Shown here: positions 3,589-62,148 of the stretch, in pieces
Layout of the letters: every line of letters begins with the position of its first letter
Numbering within the stretch: the first letter of the stretch is position 1
Assembly: GCA_028718185.1 (NCBI GenBank)
Contig: JAQUMH010000002.1
Coordinates: 4,088-68,087 of the forward strand
Direction of reading: 5' to 3'
Source: Elusimicrobiota bacterium
GTDB taxonomy: Bacteria > Elusimicrobiota > UBA8919
DNA length: 64,000 nt
Translations under genes and position numbers: made by a program
Notes under the pieces: generated by a model
Databases searched by the model: none
Told to the model about the DNA's origin: nothing
The model's input: only the letters and a program-made list of their open reading frames with translations

Positions 3589-3678
3589 GTCATTGCGAGC
3601 CCGCCAACGGTTCAGTGGCGGGCGTGGCAATCTCTATTTAAAAACTACGAGATTGCTTCACCTTCGGTTCGCAATGAC
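3589..3678. repeat. Palindromic mosaic element, family A (GTCATTGCGAG...GCAATCTC / GAGATTGC...TCGCAATGAC) with a nested hairpin CCCGCCAACGGTTCAGTGGCGGG
   Basis: Read directly. Outer and inner arms are mutually complementary. The nested hairpin recurs inverted at 44165-44187. Confidence 0.8.
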
Positions 3679-29300: not shown

Positions 29301-32300
29301 GGTTTGTCCAACCGGATGGTGAAACAGATAAAGATTGTGGTTTATCTGGCGGGGTCGTATCTACTATTATTCCATCACTGCTAACCGGGGTCTCGGAACC
29401 AGCTCCATTTTTCGCTTTCACTGTAAAATAATAAATACCGTCATCTAAAGGTGAATCAAATGTCCTAGTTATATTACTAAGTGTTCCTGTTGATGTTAAA
29501 GCGATAATATTATACCATCCAGTATTCGGATATTGTGATGTTCCTATTGCATATTGATATTCCACAATTCCAGAGATATCCTCGGTAAAACTCCAATTAC
29601 AAGAAAGTTGTGTGTTATTGTTTGTATATAACCCATCATTAATTGATACACACATTGGCGAAGTTGTATCAATCATTACACTGCCTCCTGTTAGCCATGC
29701 ACTCCATCTACCTGCCCCATTTTGAGCACGAACTTTTGCAAAATATGATTGACCATGAATAAGACCATCTACAGTATAATTTGTTTGACTATTTGGAACA
29801 TCTGCTTGTGCTATTAGGCTATCTGTGATGCTATTATAAATTGCAATATTAAAATTAGATATACCACTTTCCATATCGGTAGCAAAATCGCCTTCCCATG
29901 TAAATGTTACTGTTGTAGAAGAGGAATAGGCACCTCCTGCAAATCTTGGTGCCTTTGCAGGACCACTAGGCATTTCTGGGTCTGTTGTATCAAGATAAAT
30001 TTCATCCTTTATTTCTACTATAGAAATATTTCCTGCTTTATCTTTATATCTCGCCCATACCGTTTTATTACCTGCTCCTGCTGTCAACCACCAAGGAGAA
30101 TAAATATGTGTATACTCAATCCAATCTCCAATAAAAATTATTCCATCATAAGAAAACTGCATCCAACCAACTTCACTATTATCTGAAACTGTGGAATACA
30201 AACTAACTTGCTGACTACCTGTAAAATTTTCTAACGGTGCAAATGTATCTCTAATAAGTAAACTTCCAATCGGTGGGGTAACATCAATCATAAACTCTTT
30301 ACCAATAGTTGGTGTAACATTTGTAGCAATATTCTCTCCAATATCTTTTCCACTTATGGTAACGGAAACCATTCCTTCAACACCAGGACCAGAAACAATA
30401 TTTACTTCACCTTTATACACATTCCCTGATACAAGTATGGTTGCTACTTCTGTTTTATCATTCACAGTACCAGGAGCATCTATACTGAATGTTGGGTTGG
30501 CAGATAATTGTTCACTTGCAGTTATTTTTAGATAAATTGTTTGTGCTTTAGTTATTGGCTTTCCTGTATAAGTTGCTAATGGTTGTGTAAGATTTGAATC
30601 TGCAAAATATTCTACTGTGAAATTTGGTGGTATCATTGCTATTAAAGAGTAATCTAAATTATTAGCAAAAGCGTCTGTATTGCTTGGTATAACAATAACT
30701 TTGGAACAAGTTGTATCAAAATTGGAAATGGATACGGTATTACCAGTTTTATTTAAATCATTTTGTTCTTCTATAGTGCCATCCATTTTAACTTTCAACA
30801 CTTTGCCACCCCATAATGGTGTAACTACTGATGAATCAAAATTAAGGAGAAGCGTTTGTGGAGTTGGTTTATCAGGTGCTGGACGAAATTCAAAATAGTG
30901 ACTTGCAAGATGCATAACAGTATTAACTCCTGATGGGTATTGGTATTTAGCAGAAGTATCTAAAACTGTTATCTTCGGATAAGAATTACCTTCAATATAA
31001 TATTTAGAAGCATCATAATTCCAAACAGTAAATGTCTTAAATTCATTAGATAAACTTGTTCCATGACCTGATATTAATTCGCTATCAATTGCCGACAAAG
31101 AATCGGTAGTTTTACATATATCCCAAATCTGGCGAATTATATCTTTCTCATTAAATCTCTCGGAAAAATATTTTGCAAAAATACAGGAACCGTATTCATT
31201 CCAATCATTTATATAATCCAATGATTGAGTAGAATTTGCAAACCAAGATGGCTTTCCAGCAAATCCTTTAAGATATTGTAAATAGTCATTTACATTAGGA
31301 TAAATTTCATCTTCCATCCAGACAGATGTAGCTTCATTCCACCAATAATTATCATCTCTTGGATTATAACTACATTTAACAGCATGAAAAAACTCATGGG
31401 CGGAGGTAATCTGCATAGCATCTGTACCATGTGTATAAAATTTATCACCAATATAATCATTGTCTACCTGAATTATAGAACCTAAAATTGGATGTTTATA
31501 TGCAGTGCTTCCATATGCGCCATTTCCTAAATTTAAAATATAAACAGGTAATTTATTTTCAATTACAAAATATTCTGATGGTGGAGATTCATAACCATAT
31601 GAACCAGGTTTCACTATTTGGTTCCAACTATATTCAAAATACTGTCCAAAATTATATACATAATCGGGAATACCATTGTGTGATTGCCAACCTGCTGAAT
31701 TGACCTGATTAACATCAGGATTTGAAATTGTATATGCTCTAAAATGAAACTTAAAATTAGTGGTTTTATAAACGCCGTAAGTGTAATATACATCTTTTAT
31801 ATTGCTAACATTACCAGCAACATCCCACACTTGTATCATTATATGATTTATTCCTTGGCGAAGATTAATATTATCAAACGATTTAGTATCATTTGTGCCA
31901 TTTACGTATTGTTCTTTTGCTGGTCCTATTTCTGGTATTACCACTATTTTTTCCAATTGAATCGTATCTGACACAGTAACATTTATTGTTATTGTTTCAT
32001 TTTCTCCTTGATTTTGGTCAGGAGGATTAAATGAGACCACGGTAGGTTTAGTTTCATCAAGTATAATGGAAGTGGAAACAAAGGATGATATATTACCTGC
32101 ATAATCTTTAACTCTAAAATATATTGTTTTTGCACCTTCGCCAGTAGAATTAATATAATAAGATTTTGATATAGAATAATCTTCCCAAGTTGATGGCCAA
32201 TTATTAGAATCCTCAGTAAATTGCATTTTCGCCACACCGGAAGTTGCATCACTTGCTAATAACGCTAATGTAATAATTCTATTATTAGTAAATCCCGTAC

Positions 32301-34260: not shown

Positions 34261-35262
34261 TCACTCGCTTCCAAAACTATAACCAATTGATACTCTTTGG
34301 TTTGGGTTAAGTGTTTCAACCAAACCAATCCCATAATCAACTTTTAATCCTTTCATTTGGAAACCTGCGCCAAGAGTAACCTTATCAATATCATATCCTA
34401 CTTTATAGCCAAATCGCAGAAATACTGTTTCTTTGAAACTATACTCAATACCAATGTTTTCCCTTATATTACTTTCATTTGGTTTAACTGTGTCAATGGC
34501 AATCAAAAAACTGTGATTTTGTAATACCGTTTTATTATATGCTATTCCTAACCTTATGTTCATAGGAAGTGCGTCTCCCTGTTCAATGTACTTCAGTTTT
34601 GTCCCTACATTTTGAACAGCAAGTCCTGTTGAAAGTCCATCAACGGTTGTATAATATAAAATACCAAAATCCACTGCATATGCAGTCCCTGAATATGTTT
34701 CTACAAGTTTGGATGAAAGATACTTTGCAGTTAACCCTAATGAAAAATTATTGAAAATTTCTTTGCCATAACCTATTGTTCCAACTATATCCTGCTGTGC
34801 TTTAACATTCCTTGAAGTACCATCAAGATTATTCCATTCAAAATTACCACCATCATAATAAAGAAAACTTGCTCCAAAACTGCCTATTCCATTTGATGGC
34901 GTTCCTACCCATCCAACTAAACCGTAATTTTCATCTACTCTGCCTTTTAAATACATACTCGCTATTTCATTACCTTCTATATTTACCAAACCTGCCGGGT
35001 TATAATAAAGTGCATTTGTGTCATCACATACAGCAACAAACGCTTCACCCATACCTACAGTTCTGGCACTTACTGTCTGATTTAAAATCCTTGCACCGGA
35101 GGTACCAGAACCAGCATAAAGACAGGAAGTAGGGAGTAGGAAGTAGGAAGTGGTAAAGGCAATAAATAAAACCAGAGATTGCCACGAGCCAATTGACATC
35201 GGCTCTCGCAATGACTTCCTTTCTAAAATTTCTCTAAACATAACACACATCCTAAACATCAA
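34261..35262 (-). CDS. PorV/PorQ-family (UPF0164-like) outer-membrane beta-barrel protein; the true start is probably Met22 at 35199
   Basis: The motif GARILNQTVSARTVGMGEAFVAVCDDTNALYYNPAGL matches the PorV/LptO N-terminal signature. Amphipathic beta strands alternate through to the C-terminal ...IGYSFGSE. Confidence 0.6.
   Translation of the reverse strand: MMFRMCVMFREILERKSLREPMSIGSWQSLVLFIAFTTSYFLLPTSCLYAGSGTSGARILNQTVSARTVGMGEAFVAVCDDTNALYYNPAGLVNIEGNEIASMYLKGRVDENYGLVGWVGTPSNGIGSFGASFLYYDGGNFEWNNLDGTSRNVKAQQDIVGTIGYGKEIFNNFSLGLTAKYLSSKLVETYSGTAYAVDFGILYYTTVDGLSTGLAVQNVGTKLKYIEQGDALPMNIRLGIAYNKTVLQNHSFLIAIDTVKPNESNIRENIGIEYSFKETVFLRFGYKVGYDIDKVTLGAGFQMKGLKVDYGIGLVETLNPNQRVSIGYSFGSE
35124..35215. 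repeat. Repeat modules forming the 5' end of the PorV-like ORF (7-nt AGGAAGT/AGGGAGT units plus a family A half-element GAGATTGCC...CTCGCAATGAC)
   Basis: AGGAAGTAGGGAGTAGGAAGTAGGAAGTGG at 35124-35153 and GAGATTGCCACGAGCCaattgacatcGGCTCTCGCAATGAC at 35175-35215 were read directly. They are translated as ...REPMSIGSWQSL...TTSYFLLPTSCL. Confidence 0.75.
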
Positions 35263-52396: not shown

Positions 52397-54568
52397 TATT
52401 TGAGCGTTTTTCCTTGCCATGTAAAGATATTTCTGGGCATCGATATTGTTTGGATTGATTTTTAGAGTTTTTTCAAGTTCTTCAATAACTTTATCCCATT
52501 TATTAAGACGCCAATATGCCACTGCCATATTATAGTGTGCATCCATATAATCGGATTTAATTTTGACTGCTTCGTTATATTCGGAAATAGCTTCATTAGT
52601 TTTGTTTTGTTTTTCATAAATAGTCCCAAGATTATTATAAACAATTGCCCAATCGTAAAGAATTGAATCAACCACTTCCGGAAAAGACTTATATTCAATT
52701 GCATCATTGTACATTTTTGTATAATATTTTATTGATTCCTTATAGTAATACTCGGTTTTTTCTAAATCATTTTTTTGATAATAAAGCCAGCCGAGATTAT
52801 AATATATAGAAGGATAATCTTCTTTTATTGATATTGCTTCATTAAATTTTATTATTGCATCTTTTTCTTTATCTTCCCTCATAAAGAAAAGACCTGCTTT
52901 GAACAAAGAATCGGCATATTGTGAGATAATTTTCTGTGTAAAAAAATCCGGATATGCAGATGCATTGAGAACGCTTCTCTTTATGTAAAATTCCACAAAA
53001 TTAACCGGCTTATCAAATACTGTTTTTATATCTTTTACCTGAAAAACCAGCCCATAAGGATAAACATAATATTTCTGACCAAGCATTTCGTAATCTTCAA
53101 CATCACTTGTAAAACAGACATTCCTGTTTTTATTGAATATATAAAACTGGGAAAATGTATCCGGATTATTTAATGAAAAAACATCCGTATTTTTATATTT
53201 TTTTAACGTTTCCTGATACCATTTACTTCCCGAAAGTCCTTTTGCTATAACTGTAATATCATTACGTTTATTTTCCACATACTGTAAATACCATTCTGAA
53301 AAAACCTGAATATCTTCTCTTGATATAATTATTGAATTGGCCGGAAGAGACCTGAAAACGTTCCTTGCAAAATCGTATGCAGTAAAATTATTACGCATAT
53401 TTTGTTTACCTATATTTAATGTAAATAACCATATTGGAATTATTAAAAAAATAATAGAAACCGTTTTTAACTTTCGGGACACAAAATATATCCCGAAACC
53501 AAACCACAAAGCAAGCATTAAATCAGAAATTAAATAGTGCGGTTCCACAATTGCAAGTGCATACGGGTTAGGCGGCATTTTAGCAATTGTAATGAAAAAA
53601 GGTCCTGTGATAATGTAAATCATTAATGTTGATATCAAAAAATCCTTTTTTGCTTTATACAAATATAAAAATCCAAAAAATACTATCGGAATACCAATAA
53701 TGGTAAATAGATTAAAAGTTCTTTCTAAATAGACCTTCATTCCCGAGTAAAAAACATCACTGATTTTATATCTTGTGGAGATTAAATCCAATGTTTTCCC
53801 GTGCGTTTTACGGGTAATTGTATCCATTACTGTCTGTATATTATCGGGTTTATTCCAATTTAGATATGGCTGAGTTTTTGACCTTGCAGGCAAAAATGCA
53901 AATATAGAAAAACCAAGAAAAAACAGAATTACATAAGTAATTATATTTTTAATTGAAAAAAGGTTTTGTATTTTACTCTTTACAACCCAATATAAAATCC
54001 CGGGAACAATTAAAATTATCTCAATACGGTTGCCTGTCGCTAGCCCTAACAGGAAAGAAACGAGTAACAAGTAACGAGTAGTGAGTAATAAATAAATTAT
54101 CAATACAATAAAAAAGATGTTTAGAGTATACATTTCCGCGACTACTGAAACAGACCATAAGGTCTTGGAAAAAGCAAAAATAAGAACAGGTAAGCAGGCG
54201 GATAATAAGAAAGCGGGATTGTGCGATTGTGGGATTGTGGAATAGAGAGAGTGCGGGATTGCGGGATTGTGGGATTGCGGGATAGAAAAAGAACAGGTCA
54301 ACTGCTTTATAATCAAATATATGATACTACAAGTTAAAGCGCCAAAAACAGCACTCATGCAGTTTACACGATAGGCTATATTTCCGAATGGAATTAAAAT
54401 TGTAAAGATTTTTCCAAGAACCACATATAACGGATACCCGGGCGGGTGAGCTATTCCATACTTGTAACAAACAGATACCATCTCTCCTGCATCACGATAG
54501 ATTGCAACCGACGGGAACAATGTATAAACAAACACCCAAAATGTTAATAAAAACAAGAAATAAATCAT
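52388..54568 (-). CDS. DUF2723 (TMEM260-like GT-C) membrane protein with C-terminal TPR repeats, paralog 1
   Basis: 726 aa. The N-terminus is YRDAGEM....GIAHPPGYPLYVVLGKIF...PFGNIAYRVNCMSAVFGALTC, followed by many TM segments and a TPR tail. Confidence 0.65.
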   Translation of the reverse strand: MIYFLFLLTFWVFVYTLFPSVAIYRDAGEMVSVCYKYGIAHPPGYPLYVVLGKIFTILIPFGNIAYRVNCMSAVFGALTCSIIYLIIKQLTCSFSIPQSHNPAIPHSLYSTIPQSHNPAFLLSACLPVLIFAFSKTLWSVSVVAEMYTLNIFFIVLIIYLLLTTRYLLLVSFLLGLATGNRIEIILIVPGILYWVVKSKIQNLFSIKNIITYVILFFLGFSIFAFLPARSKTQPYLNWNKPDNIQTVMDTITRKTHGKTLDLISTRYKISDVFYSGMKVYLERTFNLFTIIGIPIVFFGFLYLYKAKKDFLISTLMIYIITGPFFITIAKMPPNPYALAIVEPHYLISDLMLALWFGFGIYFVSRKLKTVSIIFLIIPIWLFTLNIGKQNMRNNFTAYDFARNVFRSLPANSIIISREDIQVFSEWYLQYVENKRNDITVIAKGLSGSKWYQETLKKYKNTDVFSLNNPDTFSQFYIFNKNRNVCFTSDVEDYEMLGQKYYVYPYGLVFQVKDIKTVFDKPVNFVEFYIKRSVLNASAYPDFFTQKIISQYADSLFKAGLFFMREDKEKDAIIKFNEAISIKEDYPSIYYNLGWLYYQKNDLEKTEYYYKESIKYYTKMYNDAIEYKSFPEVVDSILYDWAIVYNNLGTIYEKQNKTNEAISEYNEAVKIKSDYMDAHYNMAVAYWRLNKWDKVIEELEKTLKINPNNIDAQKYLYMARKNAQIHE
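54061..54095. repeat. 7-nt tandem units (CGAGTAA/CAAGTAA/CGAGTAG/TGAGTAA/TAAATAA) inside paralog 1, encoding part of a TM helix
   Basis: Read directly. A related array is at 56012-56053 in paralog 2. Confidence 0.6.
54213..54284. repeat. Nine consecutive 8-nt units (GCGGGATT/GTGCGATT/GTGGGATT...) in frame in paralog 1 (72 nt)
   Basis: The 8-nt register is kept over 54213-54284. It is translated as SIPQSHNPAIPHSLYSTIPQSHNPAF. Confidence 0.8.
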
Positions 54569-56529
54569 AATCTTTTTTTAGCTATTTCCAGATAATTTTT
54601 CACATCAGCTCTTTCCGGATTTATCTGTAAAACTTTTTCAAATTCTTCCACCACACCCTGCCAGTTTTTCATATCCCAGTATAAAGCTGCTAAACTATAA
54701 TGTGCATCTTCATAATTTGGGAATATTTCAATGGCATTTTTAAACATTAATATCGCCGTATTTTTTTGATTAGTTTCAATATAATACTTTGATAATGTAA
54801 GATAATAAAAATAAGCTAAAATAGCATCACGAAACCTCGAATACTTTCCTCTTAATGCATAAATATAAGAAAAATCATGTTGAGGCATTTCCTTGTTAAG
54901 TGAATATAAAAGCCCTGCATTATAAAATTTCATATCACTGAAATAATCAGGATTTTCAGCTAAATAATAAGTGCTTTTCCCGCTATCTAAAATCATTTTT
55001 CTTTCAATCGGCAACCTAACCATCCGCCTTTCACTACCCTTAATCCAATAATACCTATCACCATATATGTTGGGAAAAACACTTGCATTACAGTCAAAAA
55101 CATCTACTGTCGGCCTTCTTTTTTCAACTATTTTCTGATATGCAAGAATAAATACAGATTCATCTGCTTTATCCAGAAAAAGCAATGAGTTATTTGAAAC
55201 AGTTTTCAAAATATTTTTGCCGAGGTCAAACGGGAAGAAATTGTATCTTAAATTGTTTCTTTGAAAGTTTGCCGAAAACTGGAAAACCAAAAATCCTGTT
55301 ATAAAAATATAAGCCACGAACGTGCAAACCGCTTTATGGTAAACCCAGGTTGTTTTATCGACTATATACTTTACCCCCATACCAATCCATATTGCGAATA
55401 TTATTACTGAAGGTATGTGAAAGGGTTCGAGCAGGTCTCTCGTAGAATCATCTACAGGTTTATTAGCCAAAAACATAAAAATTGGTCCAGAAAAAAAGAA
55501 GATTAAAAATAGAAACCAAAAATATTTCTTTTCTTTTTTATAATTATAAATAAAACCGGTAATTCCTAAAATAGATCCAAAGACAGTAAATGAATCTACG
55601 ATATTTTTAATATATTCCCAAAGCTGCTGCATCAGCAGAGGCAGGGGTCTAAATAAATATCCCCCTTTCTCTTCAATATGCATTACACCGCCGTATCCTA
55701 TCCTGAAAACTACTCTTAAAAAATTTATAAACTTACCGGGATTGTCCCAATTGGCTATCGGATTTTGGCGGGAACGAATAAACAAATATAAATATAGTGA
55801 AAAACCAAGTAAAAAAAATAGCGTCCAATGTCCGATGTCCCTGCCCCGTGGCAAGGCGGGCGATGTCCAATGTCTTAAAGGTTTATTTTGAACTGAGTTT
55901 GCTCCGCTCAAAACAGGATACTTAGGACTTTGGAGTATTAAATATAACATACCGGGAAATAAAAGTACTAGTGTATGGTGGTTACAAAGCCCTAAACCGA
56001 ATAAGAAAGAAATGAGTAACGAGTAACGATTAACGAGTAATAAATAAATAATCAATATGACAAAAAACGCGTTTAATGTGTATATCCCGCCTTTTGTCTG
56101 GACACATTGAGACCAAAATATATTAGAAAAAGCTAAGAAAAAGGCGGATAAGAAAGCGGGAAAGCGGGAAAGTGGGAAAGCGGGATTGTGCGATTGAGAG
56201 ATAGCGGAATCGTGGGATTGTGCGATTGTGGGATTGTGGGATAGAGGGTCAGCGGACGAGCTGGTAAGATGCTTCATTAACAAATACATTATACCGCAGG
56301 TTAATGCTCCGAAAAAGACGCTCATGCAATTTACACGATATGCTATGTTTCCATAAGGGATTAAAATTGTAAATATCTTCCCAAGCAACACATACAACGG
56401 ATATCCCGGCGGGTGACTAATACCCAAAACGTACGAAGAAGTTATAAGTTCGCCACTATCGCCTGTACATACAGTAGGTGAAGAAGTGAATAGTAATATT
56501 CCTAAGTTTATCAAAAATACTATTATCAT
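54565..56529 (-). CDS. DUF2723 (TMEM260-like GT-C) membrane protein with a short C-terminal TPR region, paralog 2
   Basis: 654 aa. The N-terminus is TGDSGELITSSYVLGISHPPGYPLYVLLGKIF..PYGNIAYRVNCMS. There are 4-nt overlaps with both neighbours. Confidence 0.65.
   Translation of the reverse strand: MIIVFLINLGILLFTSSPTVCTGDSGELITSSYVLGISHPPGYPLYVLLGKIFTILIPYGNIAYRVNCMSVFFGALTCGIMYLLMKHLTSSSADPLSHNPTIAQSHDSAISQSHNPAFPLSRFPAFLSAFFLAFSNIFWSQCVQTKGGIYTLNAFFVILIIYLLLVNRYSLLISFLFGLGLCNHHTLVLLFPGMLYLILQSPKYPVLSGANSVQNKPLRHWTSPALPRGRDIGHWTLFFLLGFSLYLYLFIRSRQNPIANWDNPGKFINFLRVVFRIGYGGVMHIEEKGGYLFRPLPLLMQQLWEYIKNIVDSFTVFGSILGITGFIYNYKKEKKYFWFLFLIFFFSGPIFMFLANKPVDDSTRDLLEPFHIPSVIIFAIWIGMGVKYIVDKTTWVYHKAVCTFVAYIFITGFLVFQFSANFQRNNLRYNFFPFDLGKNILKTVSNNSLLFLDKADESVFILAYQKIVEKRRPTVDVFDCNASVFPNIYGDRYYWIKGSERRMVRLPIERKMILDSGKSTYYLAENPDYFSDMKFYNAGLLYSLNKEMPQHDFSYIYALRGKYSRFRDAILAYFYYLTLSKYYIETNQKNTAILMFKNAIEIFPNYEDAHYSLAALYWDMKNWQGVVEEFEKVLQINPERADVKNYLEIAKKRL
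55821..55874. repeat. GTCCAAT/GTCCGAT 7-nt units flanking a GC segment, in frame in paralog 2
   Basis: GCGTCCAATGTCCGATGTCCCTGCCCCGTGGCAAGGCGGGCGATGTCCAATGTC was read directly. It is the reverse-complement vocabulary of the GACATTG array at 62100-62134. Confidence 0.65.
56152..56247. repeat. Twelve consecutive 8-nt units (4x GAAAGCGG-type, then GATTGTGC/GATTGTGG-type) in frame in paralog 2 (96 nt)
   Basis: The register is kept over 56152-56247. It is translated as ADPLSHNPTIAQSHDSAISQSHNPAFPLSRFPAF. Confidence 0.8.
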
Positions 56530-58787
56530 TTTTTTAGTATTGCCAGATACTTTTTTGCTTCGGAATGAGCAGGATTAAGCTGTAATACAGTTTCAAATTC
56601 TTCAACAACACCTTTCCAGTATTTTATTTTCCAATAAGCAACACCCAGATTATAGTGTGCATCAACATAATAGTATTTTAGCGATATTGCTTTTTTATAT
56701 TCGGATAATGCTGCTTCATTTTGATTTGTCTTCTCATACAAAACACCAAGATAACAATGCGGTTCCGCAAGCTCCGGACTTGCTTCCGAAGATTTCATAT
56801 AATCGTCTTTTGCTTCTTCATATTTATTTATTTGGAATTTTTCATACCCCCTTGTCAAATAAATAAATGCAAGATTATTCCTGATGTTTTCATCGTAGGG
56901 ATTTATTTCAATACCTTTTCTATATCTTACAATTGCCTCTTCAATAAATCCTTTTTCTTTGAGTGAAATTCCGATATTATTATAAACCCATTCTACATCT
57001 CCGCCGTTTTGTCCGGCTTTATCATATTCTTTTAACATTTCATCATTTTTCTTGTCTTTATAATATTTTTCAGCAAGAAAATAGTGGTATTGCGAAGAAA
57101 CATCTCTCAAAAGGTATTCACTTAAATAATTTTTATTATCTATACCACGAGTTACATATACCTGCCACAAATCATAATTAACGTTCAGCGGTTTTGCTTT
57201 ATATATTATTCCTGAAATATCAGATTTGACATCCCTTAAATTTGAAAAACTACTACCTAACGAAAAACATATAGGTCTTGCTTGTTTTAATAGTTCTCTT
57301 TGAACATACTCCCTTCTTTCCTGCTTTTGTTCTTTTGTAAGTTGAAAGAAATCATCACCATAAACATTCTTAAATAAAAGTCCGGTATCGGTATAAAAAG
57401 AAACATCTAACCGTTTTTTTAGGCACCATTGCTGGTAAGACAGAAGAAACATCTGATTATCACCTGAAGAGAAAAAATGTGAATTTTTGGGAAGAGACTT
57501 TATAATATTTGAAGAATAATCATATGCTACAAAATTATTTCTTTTGCTATTATAATTAAAATTCATAATGACAGGTAAAATCAAAAGGCAGGAAAATAAA
57601 GAAAGTTTTAAATATTCAGAAGGTTCCCCCCTAGTTTTGTCTAACGATAAAACTGGCAGGGGGGTACTTTTTTTGAATTTATTAAAGGTAAAAATGCGAA
57701 AAAAGTAAAAAAAGCCAATCCCTAGCCAAATAGCCATAACGGTATAGGCAGGTAGATAATAAACTTCTACAACGGATGTTTGCTGCGGATTGAATTGAAA
57801 TCTTAAAATAAAGATTAGACCTAAACCGTTTAATAAAAATAATCCTACAGTAAGAATACATATTTTTTTACACGATTTATAAAATTTTATTAAACCAAAC
57901 AATACAAAAGGTAACATATAATATGTGAATTGTTCACCTGCAAGTTTAAAATAATGTTTTATAAACAACAACTTTGTCGAAAATGTAACTTTTTGTCCGA
58001 ATTCATATGATTTATATTGAACACGCCTGATATGTGCTATAAAATTATGCAATGTTCCTGTATTTCCCTGATTCATTAGAGGATTTTCCAAAGACCGGAC
58101 AGGCATAGATACCAGAATCGTCAAAGCCAGCAATATAAAAAATATACAAATAATAATATTAGCAAAAGGTTTATTTTTCCCAAAGAGATTCTTCCAGTAA
58201 AAAACTAAAAATGCAATTAGCAATAATCCGGAAATATAATGTCCTGCTATGCTTAATCCCGCAATAAAAGAAAACAAATAAATATTTTTATTTTTCAATA
58301 CTGATATATAGATAAGTAATACAATAAAAAACGAAGTTAGGGTATATATACCGCCTTTAGCTATAACACTTTGCGACCAGAAAGTTTTAGAAAAAGCTAA
58401 AAATAACGCAGGAAGACAGGCGAATAAGAAAGTGGGATTGTGGGATTGTGGGATTGTGGGATAGCGGAATAGCGAAGCAGAAGATGAGGAGATAAGCTGT
58501 TTCATAACCAAATACACAATTCCGCATGTTAATGCGCCGAAAACGGCGCTCATTATGTTTAATCTATATGCAATATTTCCGTAAGGTATTATGAATGTAA
58601 ATATTTTTCCAAGCAATACATACAATGGATACCCGGGCGGATGAGTAATACCCAAAGTATATGCCGCAGTTGCAAATTCTCCGCTATCACCCACATAAAC
58701 TGTAGGGCATAATGTTATTAGATATATCCCTAATGATAATAAATACACTAAAATCATTGCAGACCGCTTCTCCTTCGTAAAAACCAT
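56526..58787 (-). CDS. DUF2723 (TMEM260-like GT-C) membrane protein with extended C-terminal TPR repeats, paralog 3
   Basis: 753 aa. The N-terminus is VGDSGEFATAAYTLGITHPPGYPLYVLLGKIF..PYGNIAYRLNIMSAVFGALTC, with a long TPR tail. Confidence 0.65.
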   Translation of the reverse strand: MVFTKEKRSAMILVYLLSLGIYLITLCPTVYVGDSGEFATAAYTLGITHPPGYPLYVLLGKIFTFIIPYGNIAYRLNIMSAVFGALTCGIVYLVMKQLISSSSASLFRYPTIPQSHNPTFLFACLPALFLAFSKTFWSQSVIAKGGIYTLTSFFIVLLIYISVLKNKNIYLFSFIAGLSIAGHYISGLLLIAFLVFYWKNLFGKNKPFANIIICIFFILLALTILVSMPVRSLENPLMNQGNTGTLHNFIAHIRRVQYKSYEFGQKVTFSTKLLFIKHYFKLAGEQFTYYMLPFVLFGLIKFYKSCKKICILTVGLFLLNGLGLIFILRFQFNPQQTSVVEVYYLPAYTVMAIWLGIGFFYFFRIFTFNKFKKSTPLPVLSLDKTRGEPSEYLKLSLFSCLLILPVIMNFNYNSKRNNFVAYDYSSNIIKSLPKNSHFFSSGDNQMFLLSYQQWCLKKRLDVSFYTDTGLLFKNVYGDDFFQLTKEQKQERREYVQRELLKQARPICFSLGSSFSNLRDVKSDISGIIYKAKPLNVNYDLWQVYVTRGIDNKNYLSEYLLRDVSSQYHYFLAEKYYKDKKNDEMLKEYDKAGQNGGDVEWVYNNIGISLKEKGFIEEAIVRYRKGIEINPYDENIRNNLAFIYLTRGYEKFQINKYEEAKDDYMKSSEASPELAEPHCYLGVLYEKTNQNEAALSEYKKAISLKYYYVDAHYNLGVAYWKIKYWKGVVEEFETVLQLNPAHSEAKKYLAILKK
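57626..57664. repeat. Hairpin module CCCCCCTAGTTTTGTCtaacGATAAAACTGGCAGGGGGG in frame in paralog 3
   Basis: It has the same design as the intergenic module at 47083-47125. It is translated as TPLPVLSLDKTRGEP. Confidence 0.7.
58432..58475. repeat. GTGGGATT x3 perfect plus 2-3 degenerate 8-nt units, in frame in paralog 3
   Basis: Units begin at 58432, 58440, 58448, 58456 and 58464. It is translated as ..RYPTIPQSHNPTF. Confidence 0.8.
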
Positions 58788-60808
58788 TCAATTGAAAGTA
58801 ATATAATTAGAAGAATATAGATTATAGGCTTATTCCAAATATTTATTTCATATAAAAGATCTGACTGTGTTGTCCGTGGCTTAATCTCTAGTTTATTAAA
58901 ATTAAACTCTTCAATTGACATAAATTTGCCATTAGTCAAATCTGCTACTTCTTTCATAAACGGTTCATTAACAAAATTTGATTCTAATTCTTTTGAGACG
59001 TCAAAAACATTTAAGGATATGTTATCATTTCCCAAAAATTTCTTATTATAATACGCCTGCGCTTCTAACTTATACTCGCCTGCTAAATTAATTTCAGTGC
59101 TAAACTCATACTCGCCATTCTCAATTCCCGGAGGGACAGCAATAGATTCTTTTTTACCGTCAGGTGTTTGTATTCTTACACTTACAATTGCATTATCTAC
59201 GGGTTTAAAGTATTCATCCTTTACTCGCATTTTTATCTTTGCAATATCGCCTATATTATAGTTATTTTTTGCTATTATAGCCACCTGTTTCATTGATGCG
59301 GCATTCGTCAACCATTTTATTGACTGTCCGAAAAACTTTACGTAATTATATGAGTTATCGCTACCAAGCGCCAAGCGCCACATAGATGGAGTAAGAATAC
59401 ACATAACCCTGCCTTTATCTTTTTCTTTAATTGTAATAACCGGATATTTTGATTTTTCGGTTTCAGCAAGAACAATGGTTTTTTCTCTGACTGCAGCAAT
59501 ATTTACACTATCCAGTTCCGGCATGTTTTTCCAGATAGCATCATTAGAAACCGGGTCATCTACGAGTCTCATTATGCCATGTTCGGGGTGCAAAACGTTT
59601 AATCCATATTTAGCCGATGAAATATCAGAAGACGGGGTTATCGGTAAAATTTCATTAATCGGCGTGTTTTGATATATGTCCAATGGCACTTCCCCGCCGA
59701 TTATTAAAAGTGCTTTGCCGTATTCAGTAACAAAATTTTTAATATTCATAAGATACTGTGTGCTGATAGGAAATTTAAAAAAATTAAAATTATCAAATAT
59801 AAGCAAATCAAAGTTAAAGATTTCCCTTGAAAATATTTCTTCAACAGGAAAAGGAATAAGCGAAAGCTCGTTATCTGATACAGCAACAACATTTTCAGGA
59901 TTTCGCAATATTACAAACGATACAAGTTCAACATTGGGATTATTTTTAAGAGTGTTCCTCAGGAAAGAATAATTAAATGACGGCTGCCCGCAAAGATATA
60001 AAATACGTATTTTTTCCGGTTCAACATTCAGGACAAACTTTTTCTTATTATCCGAAAAATCTTTTTCCCCCTCATAAGTAGGTATTTCAATTACATAAGA
60101 AACCGAACCAGCTTCTTCAGGTATAACTTCAAAAGGGACTTCGAATACACCGTTGTTTTCAATATCCAATATTTTAGTTTGCAAAACGATTTTATTGCTG
60201 GTTTTAAGAAAAATTGATATTTTTTTACCTATAAAACCGGTGCTGTTTATATTCGCGACAATTGTAGTGTTAACATTTCTAAAAACAATATCCGGTACTT
60301 CAACATTACCAATTGAGATATTTTTCTGTAGATTAGAAATTTCCGGAATAACAGCAAAAACAGGTATTTTCAAATCACCCAGCTCGCTTAACACTTCTTT
60401 TGAATCTTTATTGATATTTTGATTCCCATCTGAAAATAAAATTATACTATCAATATCTTTGCCTATAAAATCAGTTTTTATCTTTTCTAATGCTCCGGTT
60501 ATATCCGTTTTCTTCCCTTTAGATTTCAATGATTCTACTTCTTTTTCAGAAACATTCCTTATATTATCTGAAAATGCAAAGAAGAACGGTTTAACTTTGT
60601 TATTTTTAACAAGTTGCAAATTTACCTTACTTTTTATTTGTTCAAAACCTTTTTGACTTATATATCCCATGCTTTGAGAATCATCGATTAAAGCAATAAC
60701 CGTAGGAATATTTCTTTTTTTATATACCTTTTTAACCGGCTGAAAAACAAGCAGAATTATAACTATAAATATCAGTATCCTTAAAATCAAAAGTATTTTC
60801 TTTATCAT
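58754..60808 (-). CDS. Membrane-anchored vWA-like / GATase1-like protein of the Bat-associated cluster
   Basis: 684 aa. An N-terminal TM is followed by VIALIDDSQSMGY (a DxSxS MIDAS-like motif). The central RILYLCGQPSFNYSFLRNTL resembles the DUF1355/GATase1-like block. There is a C-terminal TM. Confidence 0.5.
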   Translation of the reverse strand: MIKKILLILRILIFIVIILLVFQPVKKVYKKRNIPTVIALIDDSQSMGYISQKGFEQIKSKVNLQLVKNNKVKPFFFAFSDNIRNVSEKEVESLKSKGKKTDITGALEKIKTDFIGKDIDSIILFSDGNQNINKDSKEVLSELGDLKIPVFAVIPEISNLQKNISIGNVEVPDIVFRNVNTTIVANINSTGFIGKKISIFLKTSNKIVLQTKILDIENNGVFEVPFEVIPEEAGSVSYVIEIPTYEGEKDFSDNKKKFVLNVEPEKIRILYLCGQPSFNYSFLRNTLKNNPNVELVSFVILRNPENVVAVSDNELSLIPFPVEEIFSREIFNFDLLIFDNFNFFKFPISTQYLMNIKNFVTEYGKALLIIGGEVPLDIYQNTPINEILPITPSSDISSAKYGLNVLHPEHGIMRLVDDPVSNDAIWKNMPELDSVNIAAVREKTIVLAETEKSKYPVITIKEKDKGRVMCILTPSMWRLALGSDNSYNYVKFFGQSIKWLTNAASMKQVAIIAKNNYNIGDIAKIKMRVKDEYFKPVDNAIVSVRIQTPDGKKESIAVPPGIENGEYEFSTEINLAGEYKLEAQAYYNKKFLGNDNISLNVFDVSKELESNFVNEPFMKEVADLTNGKFMSIEEFNFNKLEIKPRTTQSDLLYEINIWNKPIIYILLIILLSIEWFLRRRSGLQ

Positions 60809-60857
60809 ATATTTCCACTAAAAATACAATAGTTTTTTGTCGGGTACATTTTCGTTC

Positions 60858-60950
60858 GAGATTGCTTCGCTAACGCCTACCTACCGTCATGCAGGCTCAC
60901 AATGACAAATCTGCCTGTCATTGCGAACTGACTCATCGTGAAGCAATCTC
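60858..60950. repeat. Family A palindromic element (with nested CCTACCTACCGTCATGCAGG hairpin) abutting and overlapping the GIY-YIG stop codon
   Basis: GAGATTGCTTCGC...CACAATGAC is at 60858-60905 and GTCATTGCGAAC...GAAGCAATCTC at 60917-60950. Both were read directly. Confidence 0.8.
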
Positions 60951-61251
60951 ATAAGTTATTATACAAATCAGTCCACCTTGAATTCATAATTTCAACTAAC
61001 TTAATTTTCTTATTTCTTGAACCCGCTTTTATTTGTTTTTCTCTGCTTATTGCATCTACTGGATTTTCAAAAACTTCATAATAAACAAGTTTATTAATGT
61101 TGTATTTTTCAGTGAAACCTTTTACAATTTTATTTTTATGTTCATAAACTCGCTTTTTTAAGTTGCTTGTTATTCCCGTATAAAGAACTGTATTGTTCTT
61201 GTTTGTTAAAATATAAATTGAATAATACTTTTTCATTTGAGATTGCCCCAT
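60949..61251 (-). CDS. GIY-YIG nuclease superfamily protein (small UPF0213/COG2827 type)
   Basis: 100 aa. Motifs YSIYILTNKNNTVLYTGITSNLKKRVYEH, NKLVYYE and REKQIK. Confidence 0.8.
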   Translation of the reverse strand: MGQSQMKKYYSIYILTNKNNTVLYTGITSNLKKRVYEHKNKIVKGFTEKYNINKLVYYEVFENPVDAISREKQIKAGSRNKKIKLVEIMNSRWTDLYNNL

Positions 61252-61285
61252 AAAAGGGATTTACAACTTCGTCATCCCAAACATT

Positions 61286-61313
61286 GAGATTGCTTCGCTA
61301 CGCTCGCAATGAC
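61286..61313. repeat. Family A half-element GAGATTGCTTCGCTACGCTCGCAATGAC upstream of the GIY-YIG gene
   Basis: Read directly. It lies about 35 nt upstream of the GIY-YIG start codon. Confidence 0.8.
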
Positions 61314-61353
61314 TTCATGTTTAACAAACATTTTAAACAACACTTGTGTCTAT

Positions 61354-62148
61354 TCATCTTAGTTTGTTTTGTATAAATGATTTGTGTATGCTGTCGGACT
61401 TGTATGTACCGGTTAAAGCATACATTATAATATTAAGTGTTAATTTCTTGGCTTCCCACCTCTGCTGTTCTTCGCAAGGATAAATATAATTACCAAGATT
61501 GTCTTTTTCCCATGCACCTAATAAATCATTCTGTGAGTATATAATGCTATAGCGTTCACCTATTTTGCAGCCTTCCAAATATCTATTTACAACAATTCTT
61601 CCTGATGTATTTTTTAACAAGTAAAAAGATTTAAATATTGCATCGTTCATAGGTATTTTTTCAAGCGGATTTTCAGAAAGCAGTTTTGCAATAGTAGTCC
61701 TAATTAACTTGTCAAACCCAAAACCTTTTTTACCTGATGAATCATCAATAAAAATCATTCCACCACCTTGTATATACTTTTTAAGCATCTTTAACTCATT
61801 ATCCGTCAATTGCGGAAAATCAGAGTCACCTGTAATTACAATAAAGGGCGACCAGAAAAGTTCCTCTTCTGTTATCCTGATAATCCGCCTCTGCGGCACA
61901 ACCTTCACGCTTGTTGTCATGACCAGGTATTCCGAAATTCTATCCCATGCTGTTTGCCGCATATCCCATTTACCCGCATATTGCAGCTGGCTAAAAACAA
62001 ATTTGCCCCCTTGCTGGCAGTAAAGATTGTCCGAAGTCCAAAGTCCGAAGTCCGAAGTCAATAAAACCATAACAAAAATAAATATGAACCATTTAGCATG
62101 ACATTGGACATTGGACATCGGACGTTGGACATTTTTTTTATTTATCAT
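61354..62148 (-). CDS. DUF4159 domain protein (Bat-associated cluster)
   Basis: 264 aa. After the signal region, FVFSQLQYAGKWDMRQTAW and GGMIFIDD fit the DUF4159 pattern. It overlaps the upstream vWA gene by 4 nt. Confidence 0.55.
   Translation of the reverse strand: MINKKNVQRPMSNVQCHAKWFIFIFVMVLLTSDFGLWTSDNLYCQQGGKFVFSQLQYAGKWDMRQTAWDRISEYLVMTTSVKVVPQRRIIRITEEELFWSPFIVITGDSDFPQLTDNELKMLKKYIQGGGMIFIDDSSGKKGFGFDKLIRTTIAKLLSENPLEKIPMNDAIFKSFYLLKNTSGRIVVNRYLEGCKIGERYSIIYSQNDLLGAWEKDNLGNYIYPCEEQQRWEAKKLTLNIIMYALTGTYKSDSIHKSFIQNKLR
62038..62134. repeat. Two 7-nt tandem arrays in the 5' end of the DUF4159 ORF: GTCCGAA-type x5 (62038-62072) and GACATTG-type x5 (62100-62134)
   Basis: Read directly. 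They are translated as ..LTSDFGLWTSD.. and ..NVQRPMSNVQC... Confidence 0.8.

What the first reader, a model, noticed from the sequence alone, without database searches (positions are those of the whole stretch)
60858..61313. GIY-YIG nuclease gene flanked on both sides by family A palindromes, inserted inside an operon
The 100-aa GIY-YIG (UPF0213-type) ORF interrupts the otherwise overlapping Bat-type gene chain. It is bracketed by GAGATTGCTTCGC...TCGCAATGAC-type elements. A full inverted pair lies at 60858-60950, overlapping its stop codon. A half-element lies at 61286-61313, ~35 nt before its start. The same element family is found at 3589-3678, 35175-35215 and 39704-39778.

Established knowledge: GIY-YIG domains are the catalytic modules of homing endonucleases and some mobile-element nucleases.

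Inference: the gene plus its palindromic flanks may be a small mobile cassette. The nuclease could be the trans-acting factor that cuts at or mobilises family A palindromes, analogous to the RAYT-REP relationship. This is speculative.
Basis: inference. Interest (0 to 1): 0.5.

Follow-up and report, generated by a model that had tools for sequence, protein, structure and literature searches.

The report
Ssn nuclease with its hairpin repeats
A 95-residue GIY-YIG nuclease gene, flanked by copies of a short hairpin repeat, was inserted into an operon of an Elusimicrobia genome; it belongs to the Ssn family of single-stranded-DNA nucleases described in 2025, so it is a real but already explained kind of system.

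Summary
A GIY-YIG ORF (60949-61236, minus strand; 95 aa from the likely start) lies between three complete "family A" hairpins. Five more copies occur elsewhere in the window, against none expected by chance.

It is not a UPF0213 protein. It is 40% identical over 90 of 94 residues (E=2e-28) to Neisseria SsnA. That enzyme was shown in 2025 (Chenal et al., PMC11893778) to be a site-specific ssDNA endonuclease that binds the NTS/dRS3 hairpin repeats flanking its own gene.

Family A has the same frame as NTS: GTC, palindrome, C. GTC is present in 99% and the trailing C in 100% of 293 distinct elements. These are the positions reported as critical for cleavage and binding. The inner stem covaries.

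In 80 homologous loci from more than 10 phyla, family A lies within 150 nt of the gene in 74. Its density there is 45 times that of the distal flanks.

Seven orthologous operons have DUF4159 and the 684-aa gene adjacent (overlapping or within about 21 nt) with no nuclease between them. The 545-nt segment is therefore a lineage-specific insertion.

Whether the nuclease mobilises the cassette remains untested.

The parts
60949..61236 (-). ssn gene: a 95-aa single-domain GIY-YIG nuclease (stop TGA at 60949-60951).
   Evidence: Pfam PF01541, E=3.4e-16. 100% identical to the 95-aa NCBI protein P0001 from an Elusimicrobia MAG. 40% identity and E=2e-28 to N. gonorrhoeae SsnA. Y8, Y19, R29 and E66 are invariant in alignment A1.
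61286..61313 (-). Upstream family A hairpin, the minimal 28-nt form GTCATTGCGAGCGTAGCGAAGCAATCTC. It has the same orientation as the gene, with the GTC end pointing outward.
   Evidence: A forward copy lies within 150 nt upstream of the gene in 47 of 80 homologous loci.
61239..61246 (-). An isolated GCAATCTC motif 2 nt before the likely start codon; possibly the 3' end of a degenerate element.
   Evidence: and family D3. No significant fold.
60917..60950 (+). Downstream family A hairpin in inverted orientation. It reads GTCATTGCGAACTGACTCATCGTGAAGCAATCTC on the + strand, and its terminal GAGATTGC overlaps the ssn stop codon.
   Evidence: A reverse copy lies within 150 nt downstream in 59 of 80 loci. 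The stop codon is fused to the hairpin (TGAGATTGC, TAAGATTGC or TAGATTGC) in 20 of 80.
60858..60906 (-). Second downstream family A hairpin (49 nt). It forms a GTC-to-GTC inverted pair with 60917-60950 across a 10-nt spacer.
   Evidence: The pair folds as ssDNA at -20.7 kcal/mol, z=-3.6.
60809..61353 (.). The 545-nt inserted segment between the stop of the DUF4159 gene and the start of the 684-aa gene.
   Evidence: In orthologous loci L083-L089 the two genes overlap (ATGA) or lie no more than 21 nt apart, and there is no ssn.
3589..3634 (+). Dispersed family A copy with a long, stable inner stem. It is intergenic, between a Peptidase_S41 gene and a Peptidase_M23 gene.
   Evidence: ssDNA fold -13.6 kcal/mol, z=-3.5.
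3649..3678 (-). Dispersed family A copy that forms a tail-to-tail pair with 3589-3634.
35175..35215 (-). Dispersed family A copy between a PorV-like gene and a 1074-aa gene. It lies inside the mechanically called TTG-start ORF 34261..35262, and the PorV match begins only at residue 62 of that ORF.
   Evidence: Fold z=-2.0.
39703..39736 (-). Family A copy inside a PolyA_pol/CCA-type nucleotidyltransferase ORF, read through in frame.
39749..39778 (+). Family A copy that forms a GTC-to-GTC pair with 39703-39736, inside the same ORF.

Best explanation
**What it is.** The ORF encodes an Ssn-family enzyme: an SsnA-like, single-domain GIY-YIG, site-specific single-stranded-DNA endonuclease. The 'family A palindromes' are its cognate Ssn-related hairpin repeats. 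The element is directional: GTC, then ATTGC, then a GA internal loop, then a variable covarying stem-loop, then GAA, then GCAAT, then C(TC).

**How it works (inferred).** By homology with the characterised Neisseria enzyme, the protein would act only when the DNA is single-stranded, for example during replication, recombination or uptake of incoming DNA. It would bind the folded hairpin, read the stem and the C that follows it, and hydrolyse the strand a few nucleotides 5' of the GTC.

**Arrangement.** The gene sits between inverted copies of its own target, with the GTC ends pointing outward. This hairpin-ssn-hairpin segment of 545 nt was inserted, in this Elusimicrobia lineage only, into the translationally coupled junction between a DUF4159 gene and the next gene of a VWA/DUF4159 operon. 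The other copies in the window are dispersed targets of the same enzyme.

**Shown here:** homology, conserved catalytic residues, the hairpin frame and its covariation, the gene-repeat association, and the insertion.

**Inferred:** the ssDNA cleavage itself and any physiological role.
For: **The protein**
- Single GIY-YIG domain, 95 aa.
- BLASTP to the 94-aa N. gonorrhoeae SsnA ortholog gives 40% identity over 90 residues, E=2e-28. That ortholog (L001 1513-1797) is itself flanked by canonical NTS repeats.
- The three residues whose mutation abolishes SsnA cleavage (Y6, Y17, E64; PMC11893778) correspond to Y8, Y19 and E66 here. They are invariant in alignment A1.

**The hairpin**
- NTS is CGTC-ATTCCCGCG-MAV-GCGGGAAT-C. 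Family A is GTC-ATTGCGAG..CGAAGCAAT-C.
- Anchoring only on ATTGCGA..GCAAT, the three upstream nucleotides are GTC in 99% and the next nucleotide is C in 100% of 293 distinct elements. The paper reports these positions as decisive for cleavage and binding.
- The first inner base pair is paired in 93% of 217 distinct elements: G-C 157, A-T 23, C-G 12, T-A 6.

**The association**
- The strict element lies within 150 nt of the gene in 74 of 80 homologous loci from more than 10 phyla.
- Density is 7.25 per kb within 150 nt, against 0.16 per kb beyond 500 nt.
- The stop codon is fused to the hairpin in 20 of 80 loci.
- NTS-type hairpins are essentially absent from these loci, so this subclade pairs specifically with family A.

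**The insertion**
- 7 of 7 orthologous operons lack the segment.
Against: - The degenerate SRM search string published for the family (HGTCWYN(0-2)YYVSBRHN(0-5)WNVSBRGN(0-2)RNCYNB) gives 0 hits in the window and 0 within 500 nt of the 80 homologous genes. Family A is therefore not an SRM by that operational definition.
- CDD cd10448 membership could not be computed here.
- I compared the protein with the N. gonorrhoeae ortholog, not with the N. meningitidis protein that was assayed.
- The short units flanking the gene are not thermodynamically distinctive on their own (z about 0). Support for the structure comes from covariation and from the longer copies.
- The paper shows that changing the stem sequence abolishes activity of the Neisseria enzyme. 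Cleavage of family A by this enzyme is therefore an inference from co-occurrence, not from assay.
- Family A-like 34-mers occur on 8 plasmid records that carry no ssn on the same replicon.
Confidence: 0.85

Rival explanations
1. **Autonomous mobile element.** The hairpin-ssn-hairpin unit is a self-mobilising element, and Ssn is its 'transposase'. The enzyme would cut ssDNA at the outward-facing GTC ends, so that the cassette and solo hairpins are excised and re-inserted or copied. This would be analogous to RAYT/REP or IS200/IS605. It is compatible with the best explanation, but it adds a mobilisation role.
For: - The segment is absent from 7 of 7 orthologous operons.
- The hairpins are arranged as terminal inverted copies with GTC outermost in 35 of 80 loci.
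- ssn lies between accB and accC in an alphaproteobacterial MAG (L036) and a Bacteroidetes MAG (L042), which look like independent insertions. L049, a second alphaproteobacterial MAG, has accC downstream.
- Flanking genes are otherwise unrelated across loci.
- Identity is 57-74% across more than 10 phyla without following taxonomy.
- L093 and L101 are 99.6% identical starting exactly at the outer edge of a hairpin, and unrelated beyond it.
- Hairpins have entered a coding sequence in frame.
- The authors of PMC11893778 raise the same hypothesis.
Against: - GIY-YIG enzymes are hydrolytic nucleases with no known strand-transfer chemistry (established knowledge).
- Exact protein P0038 is in the same context in 9 of 10 places shown, and P0060 is consistently next to the same T2SSF (pilC) and pilin genes wherever the contig reaches them.
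- Loci are almost always single-copy: only 3 of 80 have a second hit.
- I found no target-site duplication or defined cassette end at the window junction. About 40 and 49 nt of unexplained extra sequence lie outside the hairpins.
- The gene is almost absent from phages (1 weak hit among 50,697 records) and rare on plasmids.
Confidence: 0.3
2. **Passive cargo.** The hairpins are recombination or rearrangement hot spots, and ssn moved here by homologous or illegitimate recombination between dispersed hairpins, or by transformation. This would resemble the 'minimal mobile elements' bounded by dRS3/Correia repeats in Neisseria. Ssn would only restrict or modulate ssDNA, as shown for transformation in N. 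meningitidis.
For: - A rearrangement breakpoint lies exactly at a hairpin edge.
- Context is stable within lineages.
- The demonstrated in vivo role in Neisseria is modulation of transformation, not transposition.
- Recombination at dRS3 is discussed. The minimal-mobile-element concept is from my own knowledge.
Against: - It does not explain why the stop codon is fused to the hairpin in a quarter of loci.
- It does not explain why hairpins are 45-fold denser next to the gene.
- Nothing is known about competence in this Elusimicrobia lineage.
Confidence: 0.3
3. **Unrelated neighbours.** The ORF is a UPF0213/YhbQ- or Slx1-like structure-specific repair nuclease, or a classical GIY-YIG homing endonuclease. 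The palindromes are unrelated REP-like transcription terminators or mRNA stabilisers that happen to lie nearby.
For: - Weak similarity to the UPF0213 protein BH0048 (E=0.003).
- Weak similarity to the group I intron endonuclease model TIGR01453 (18 bits against a cut-off of 56).
- The hairpins are mostly intergenic and co-oriented with operons.
Against: - Similarity to SsnA is far stronger.
- There is no DNA-binding domain, intron or phage context.
- No terminator-like T-runs were found.
- The hairpins occur in both orientations.
- The gene-hairpin association recurs in 74 of 80 loci across phyla.
Confidence: 0.04

Closest known systems
SsnA / NTS (Ssn-related motif) system of Neisseria meningitidis and the Ssn family (CDD cd10448). 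Chenal et al., Nat Commun 2025, PMC11893778.
   Same: - A single-domain GIY-YIG protein of about 95 aa, 40% identical, with the same catalytic Tyr, Tyr and Glu.
- The gene is flanked on both sides by a directional hairpin repeat of about 28 nt or more, framed by GTC on the 5' side and C on the 3' side of an AT-initiated palindrome.
- The repeats are dispersed, mostly intergenic and often paired.
- The architecture is IS-like.
   Different: - The stem is ATTGC-GA..GAA-GCAAT with a conserved internal loop and a variable distal stem-loop of 4 to about 45 nt. NTS has a continuous ATTCCCGCG stem instead.
- Family A does not match the published degenerate SRM search string.
- The host is an uncultivated Elusimicrobia bacterium.
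- No biochemistry exists, and the physiological role is unknown.
- Three NTS/dRS3-like copies also occur in the window (39809-39833, 44063-44087, 44103-44132), but they are not next to this gene.
CGTC-tagged REP superfamily: dRS3 of Neisseria, Rickettsia palindromic elements, Wolbachia repeats. Di Nocera et al., BMC Genomics 2013, PMC3733652.
   Same: - Short palindromic repeats tagged at one end by (C/T)GTC.
- Stems begin with A-T pairs, and there is a short unpaired tail.
- They are commonly organised as dimers.
- Some copies lie inside genes.
- No associated tyrosine transposase.
   Different: - That paper found no dedicated protein partner and did not report Elusimicrobia, Cyanobacteria or candidate phyla among the CGTC hosts.
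- It describes stems of 8-9 bp with loops of 4-5 nt. Family A has a bipartite stem with a variable insert.
RAYT / REP (REPtron) and IS200/IS605
   Same: - A small gene flanked by copies of the dispersed hairpin repeat that its product recognises as ssDNA.
- The hairpins form inverted pairs (REPIN-like).
   Different: - RAYT is an HUH/Y1 transposase that makes covalent intermediates; this protein is a hydrolytic GIY-YIG nuclease.
- REPs are GTAG-tagged.
- Mobilisation by Ssn has not been shown.
UPF0213 proteins (E. coli YhbQ, B. halodurans BH0048, PDB 1zg2)
   Same: Single-domain GIY-YIG proteins of about 100 aa.
   Different: - Only marginal sequence similarity (E=0.003, 21 bits).
- BH0048 lacks the GFTxxYN motif shared by this protein and SsnA.
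- No repeat association is known (own knowledge).

Membership tests
Ssn nuclease family (PMC11893778) | Single-domain GIY-YIG protein shorter than 150 aa (SsnA is 94 aa). | tested here: met
   95 aa. The only Pfam domain is PF01541, covering residues 10-82 of the 100-aa ORF.
Ssn nuclease family (PMC11893778) | blastp hit to Neisseria SsnA with E<1e-10 and at least 75% coverage (the paper's criterion). | tested here: met
   E=2e-28, 40% identity, 90 of 94 residues. tblastn E=1e-18 against a 7.3-Gb database. Caveat: the subject is the N. gonorrhoeae ortholog. I recognised it by its length of 94 aa, by Y6/Y17/E64 at the published positions, by flanking NTS repeats and by being the single hit in that genome. 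It is not the N. meningitidis protein CAX49033.1 itself.
Ssn nuclease family (PMC11893778) | Top CDD assignment is cd10448 (GIY-YIG_unchar_3). | not testable with these tools
   No CDD/rpsblast is available. Indirect evidence: the UPF0213 structure matches only at E=0.003, and no NCBIfam model passes its cut-off.
Ssn nuclease family (PMC11893778) | Catalytic residues equivalent to Y6, Y17 and E64 of SsnA. | tested here: met
   Y8, Y19 and E66 align with them and are invariant in 10 sequences, together with R29.
Ssn nuclease family (PMC11893778) | Gene flanked within 500 bp, on both the 5' and 3' sides, by matches to the published degenerate SRM string. | tested here: not met
   0 matches in the whole window and 0 within 500 nt of 80 homologous genes. 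The string requires pyrimidine-rich, CCCGCG-like stems.
Ssn nuclease family (PMC11893778) | Gene flanked on both sides by a directional hairpin repeat with GTC immediately 5' and C immediately 3' of the palindrome (the functional determinants mapped for NTS). | tested here: met
   Elements at 61286-61313, 60917-60950 and 60858-60906. GTC in 99% and C in 100% of 293 elements. Covariation of the stem.
Ssn nuclease family (PMC11893778) | Sequence-specific cleavage of ssDNA only, on the hairpin-bearing strand only. | not testable with these tools
   Requires biochemistry.
RAYT/REP (REPtron) | The protein is an HUH/Y1 tyrosine transposase of the IS200/IS605 type. | tested here: not met
   The only domain is GIY-YIG.
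RAYT/REP (REPtron) | GTAG-tagged palindromes. | tested here: not met
   The elements are (T/C)GTC-tagged.
UPF0213 (YhbQ/BH0048) | Significant sequence similarity to UPF0213 members. | tested here: not met
   21 bits and E=0.003 to 1zg2, against 85 bits to SsnA.
GIY-YIG homing endonucleases (I-TevI type) | A GIY-YIG domain plus a C-terminal DNA-binding module, located in an intron or free-standing in a phage. | tested here: not met
   95 aa with no further domain. TIGR01453 scores 18 bits against a cut-off of 56. No Rfam intron was found. One weak hit among 50,697 phage records.
CGTC-tagged REP superfamily (PMC3733652) | A short palindrome tagged by CGTC/TGTC at one end, with the stem starting with A-T pairs and a short unpaired tail. 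| tested here: met
   Position -1 before GTC is T in 57% and C in 29%. The stem starts ATT..AAT. The tail is C(T)C.

The most novel reading that the evidence does not exclude
This Ssn subclade, together with family A hairpins, may be a pan-bacterial, self-propagating ssDNA-dependent element. It would be a GIY-YIG counterpart of RAYT/REP.

On this reading it has spread horizontally through more than 10 phyla, including candidate phyla and cyanobacteria. It inserts into operon junctions: here it broke an ATGA translational coupling, and elsewhere it lies between accB and accC. Its hairpins can even enter coding sequences in frame.

Its published relative in Neisseria would then be a domesticated case of a much larger mobile family that the published motif does not capture.
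Probability: 0.3. Interest if true: 0.6.

Novelty: new member of a known kind. Interest (0 to 1): 0.3.

Why it matters
The link between a tiny GIY-YIG nuclease and the hairpin repeats around it is real. It has an experimentally characterised precedent, so this locus can be annotated with confidence as ssn plus its cognate repeats rather than as 'UPF0213' or 'excinuclease ABC subunit C'.

This analysis adds three modest points:
- **A distinct hairpin class.** A class with a bipartite stem (GTCATTGCGAG..CGAAGCAATCTC) is not captured by the published search string. It is nevertheless the partner of a very large, highly conserved Ssn subclade found in Elusimicrobia, Cyanobacteria, Patescibacteria, Chloroflexota, Desulfobacterota and other phyla.
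- **A clean filled-site versus empty-site comparison.** It shows the cassette as an insertion into a translationally coupled operon junction.
- **An in-frame intragenic insertion.** Three hairpins are read through inside a nucleotidyltransferase gene.

Each new Ssn-hairpin pair is also a candidate reagent for site-specific ssDNA cutting, which is the application argued for in the 2025 paper.

Tried and rejected
**Negative scans**
- Rfam at gathering thresholds on the whole window: no family.
- tRNA/tmRNA scan: none.
- Intrinsic terminator scan at 60600-61600: none. Promoter-like sites were at chance level.
- PADLOC: no defence-system model. PHROGs: only marginal hits.
- NCBIfam: nothing above its cut-off.
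- A second ssn paralog in the window: none.

**Tests that did not support a link**
- The published SRM degenerate string: 0 hits. I therefore rejected it as a membership test for this hairpin class, and used the functional frame (GTC, palindrome, C) and covariation instead.
- ssDNA folding of the individual short units next to the gene gave z-scores near 0. I rejected thermodynamic stability as evidence for these copies.
- A test for recent transposition looked for one exact protein in several contexts. Both P0038 and P0060 were in essentially one context.
- A conserved functional partner gene among the flanks of 80 loci: none, apart from lineage-internal synteny in Nostocales and the accC recurrence.

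**Look-ups that failed or could not decide**
- Look-up of the exact 95-aa protein in the contig index: not on record. The 100-aa version gave only the same locus on a 1.1-kb contig.
- Full-text search for the element's sequence strings returned only unrelated primer sequences among the 20 of 70 papers listed.
- A genome-level co-occurrence test used the 34-mer against plasmids and E. coli genomes. It found 8 plasmid records with the element and no ssn on the same replicon, and none in E. coli. This is uninformative without the chromosomes.
- The supplementary data of the Ssn paper are not held.
Full report
**1. What is in the sequence**

On the minus strand, ORF 60949..61251 matches Pfam GIY-YIG (PF01541, E=3.4e-16). 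The identical NCBI protein from an Elusimicrobia MAG (P0001, on a 301-kb contig) and nearly all homologs are 95 aa. The real start is therefore most likely the second ATG, at 61236.

Read on its own strand it is GTCAT(T/C)G(C/T)GA, then a variable stem-loop, then CAATCT(C/A). A regex for the whole unit finds eight copies in the 64-kb window, at 3589-3634, 3649-3678, 35175-35215, 39703-39736, 39749-39778, 60858-60906, 60917-60950 and 61286-61313. It finds none in 200 Markov-1 simulated windows. The 13-mer GAGATTGCTTCGC with up to 2 mismatches gives 8 hits against 0.58 expected.

Three copies bracket the gene:
- A complete 28-nt unit lies upstream, in the orientation of the gene (61286-61313). 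It is not a half-element.
- An inverted unit has its terminal GAGATTGC overlapping the TGA stop codon (60917-60950).
- A third unit (60858-60906) faces the second across 10 nt.

The elements are 47-65% G+C in a 34% G+C window. The gene itself is 24% G+C.

All neighbouring genes are on the same strand and overlap one another by 4 or 34 nt. The only gap is the 545 nt that holds the nuclease.

**2. What the protein is**

It is not UPF0213. The UPF0213 structure 1zg2 matches only at E=0.003, 21 bits.

A full-text search led to Chenal et al. 2025 (PMC11893778). SsnA of Neisseria meningitidis is a 94-aa single-domain GIY-YIG protein (CDD cd10448). The paper reports that it:
- binds the hairpin repeat NTS (CGTCATTCCCGCGMAVGCGGGAATCYRG, a longer form of dRS3) only as ssDNA;
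- cuts a few nucleotides upstream of the repeat;
- does not act on dsDNA, RNA or the complementary strand;
- lowers transformation by NTS-bearing DNA.

By the paper's degenerate motif, 71% of homologous genes have an Ssn-related motif (SRM) nearby and 42% have one on both sides.

A tblastn search of the plasmid collection happened to hit a N. gonorrhoeae chromosome filed as a plasmid. The single hit there is a 94-aa ORF flanked by canonical NTS copies, one directly after its stop codon. It has Y6, Y17 and E64 at the published positions.

The window protein aligns to that ORF over 90 residues at 40% identity, E=2e-28. This passes the paper's family criterion. Y8, Y19, R29 and E66, and a GFTxxYN motif, are invariant in an alignment that includes the Neisseria protein.

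**3. What the element is**

Family A and NTS share one frame: GTC, a palindrome that begins ATT and ends AAT, then C.

I anchored a search only on the palindrome core (ATTGCGA..GCAAT) in the window and in 80 homologous loci. The three upstream nucleotides are GTC in 99% and the next nucleotide is C in 100% of 293 distinct elements. [quoted passage not shown]

Inside the ATTGC/GCAAT stem there is a conserved GA / GAA internal loop, followed by a variable stem-loop. The first variable pair is paired in 93% of 217 distinct elements and uses all four Watson-Crick combinations: G-C 157, A-T 23, C-G 12, T-A 6. Pairs 2, 4, 5 and 6 are paired in 70-76%, against 35-39% expected from the column composition. 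A hairpin is therefore under selection.

The short copies next to the gene are not thermodynamically remarkable on their own (z about 0). The long copies fold well (z=-3.5 and -2.0), and so does the inverted pair (-20.7 kcal/mol, z=-3.6).

The published degenerate SRM string does not match family A anywhere. Family A is thus a different sequence class of the same kind of element.

An older description fits as well. Di Nocera et al. 2013 (PMC3733652) defined a superfamily of "CGTC-tagged" REPs. It includes dRS3, the Rickettsia palindromic elements and Wolbachia repeats. Its tag is often TGTC, its stems start with A-T pairs, some copies lie inside genes, and no dedicated transposase was found.

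**4. The association is general**

A scan of one genome per species for relatives of the protein found more than 550. The best 80 (57-74% identity) come from many phyla:
- Elusimicrobia, Cyanobacteria and Desulfobacterota;
- Chloroflexota, Patescibacteria and Bacteroidota;
- Ignavibacteria, Zixibacteria and Atribacterota;
- Omnitrophota, Planctomycetota, Proteobacteria and others.

The strict element GTCATTGCGA..GCAATC lies within 150 nt of the gene in 74 of 80 loci. Further counts:
- A forward copy lies upstream in 47 loci.
- A reverse copy lies downstream in 59 loci.
- Both are present in 35 loci.

Density is 7.25 per kb within 150 nt, 1.9 per kb at 150-500 nt and 0.16 per kb further away. 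In 20 loci the stop codon is fused to the hairpin, as here.

NTS-type hairpins are nearly absent from these loci: 3 in about 640 kb, none near the gene. This subclade therefore pairs with family A specifically.

A Planktothrix plasmid homolog (60% identical) uses a third variant, GTCATTCTGAG..CGAAGAATCTC.

The protein family is very large.

**5. The insertion**

Nine metagenomic loci encode orthologs of the DUF4159 protein (63-72% identity). Seven of them cover the whole junction. In those seven the order VWA gene, DUF4159 gene, 684-aa gene is conserved, and the last two genes overlap (ATGA) or lie no more than 21 nt apart, with no ssn. In one shorter locus the two genes are separated by an unrelated 126-nt spacer.

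None of the 80 ssn loci has DUF4159 or the 684-aa gene beside it. The 545-nt segment is thus a lineage-specific insertion that broke a translational coupling.

The flanking genes of ssn are unrelated from one lineage to another. There are two exceptions: internal synteny in Nostocales, and a recurrence next to accC. The gene lies between accB and accC in an alphaproteobacterial and a Bacteroidetes MAG (L036, L042), and accC is also downstream in L049.

**6. How it most likely works**

Shown here: homology to a characterised ssDNA endonuclease, intact catalytic residues, a selected hairpin with the functionally mapped flanking nucleotides, a tight and conserved gene-repeat association, and an insertion.

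Inferred: the enzyme binds family A hairpins that fold out of single-stranded DNA, and cuts a few nucleotides 5' of GTC on that strand.

With the GTC ends pointing outward, the predicted cuts would fall just outside the cassette on opposite strands. For the inverted pair 60858-60950, both would fall in the 10-nt spacer.

The physiological role in this organism is unknown. In Neisseria the enzyme acts as an ssDNA restriction that modulates transformation.

**7. Is it mobile by itself?**

The comparative data favour insertion and horizontal spread. One breakpoint is exact: L093 and L101 are 99.6% identical from the outer GAGATTGC edge of a hairpin onward, and unrelated before it.

Against frequent transposition:
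- Two exact protein sequences, each seen on 24 or more contigs, are each found in essentially one context.
- Loci are nearly always single-copy.
- I found no target duplication.
- GIY-YIG nucleases have no known strand-transfer chemistry.
- The gene is almost absent from phage records and rare on plasmids.

I therefore keep "self-mobilising element" and [quoted passage not shown] as open rivals for how the cassette arrived. Neither changes what the parts are.

**8. Verdict**

It corresponds to a system published in 2025, with the repeat superfamily described in 2013.

It is a new member of a known kind, with a hairpin class that the published motif does not capture. Interest is low to moderate.

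Noticed in passing
window 39686-39841 (ORF 39245..40285, minus strand): A PolyA_pol/CCA-type nucleotidyltransferase ORF carries an in-frame insert of about 46 aa between its head domain and the rest of the protein. T. maritima 3H37 has only 6 residues at this point. The insert is encoded by three hairpin repeats: two family A units (39703-39736, 39749-39778) and one dRS3/NTS-like unit (39809-39833). The reading frame stays open. This resembles the in-frame palindromic elements of Rickettsia.
   Followed up: partly
window 43976-44230: An intergenic cluster of hairpins with three members:
- two NTS/dRS3-like units with the Neisseria-type stem, GTCATTCCCACGAAAGTGGGAATCT (44063-44087, minus strand) and GTCATTCCCGAGTGTCTCAATCGGGAATCC (44103-44132, plus strand);
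- a degenerate family A unit whose 23-nt inner stem-loop (44165-44187) is identical to that of the copy at 3589-3634.
No second ssn gene is present in the window.
   Followed up: partly
window 54213-54283, 56152-56246, 58432-58462, 62029-62059, 62100-62133, 35124-35151: Short tandem arrays of 7-8-nt units (GGGATTGT, GAAAGCGG, GTGGGATT, GTCCGAA, GACATTG, AGGAAGT). Several lie inside coding regions, for example in the N-terminal part of the DUF4159 gene and in the large TPR-containing membrane proteins.
   Followed up: no
L093 2867 / L101 2097: Two metagenomic contigs encode the identical Ssn protein. They are 99.6% identical from exactly the outer edge of the upstream family A hairpin onward, over more than 3.4 kb. 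Before that point they are unrelated: an ACR_tran efflux gene in one and a radical SAM gene in the other. A hairpin edge thus coincides with a rearrangement breakpoint.
   Followed up: partly
L103-L112 (protein P0060, Parcubacteria): The same Ssn protein sits in a type IV pilus / type II secretion cluster in many groundwater samples. It lies between a T2SSF (pilC-like) gene and an N_methyl pilin-like gene (for example L108), and all ten places shown are consistent with this where the contig reaches. This is notable because SsnA modulates transformation in Neisseria, but it may be coincidence.
   Followed up: no
L036, L042, L049: In L036 (Alphaproteobacteria) and L042 (Bacteroidetes), ssn with its hairpins lies between accB and accC. 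In L049 (a second alphaproteobacterial MAG) accC is again immediately downstream of ssn. This is a recurrent operon-junction site.
   Followed up: partly
L002 (Planktothrix agardhii plasmid NZ_LR882964.1, 18.5-19.5 kb): A 60%-identical Ssn gene is surrounded by many copies of a third hairpin variant (GTCATTCTGAGTGAAACGAAGAATCTC). It lies between an MmeI-type restriction-modification gene and DISARM drmA.
   Followed up: no
window 60845-60865 vs 61226-61246: The sequence after the last hairpin (GCAATCTCGAACGAAAATGTA) resembles the junction of the GCAATCTC motif and the ssn start (GCAATCTCAAATGAAAAAGTA); 18 of 21 nt match. It could be a remnant of a second cassette, or chance.
   Followed up: no
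L034 4547-4831 and 5586-5870: Two ssn copies lie about 1 kb apart in a gammaproteobacterial MAG. This is the only tandem pair among the 80 loci.
   Followed up: no
window 20398-32976 (minus strand): A single 4192-aa ORF. I did not examine it.
   Followed up: no
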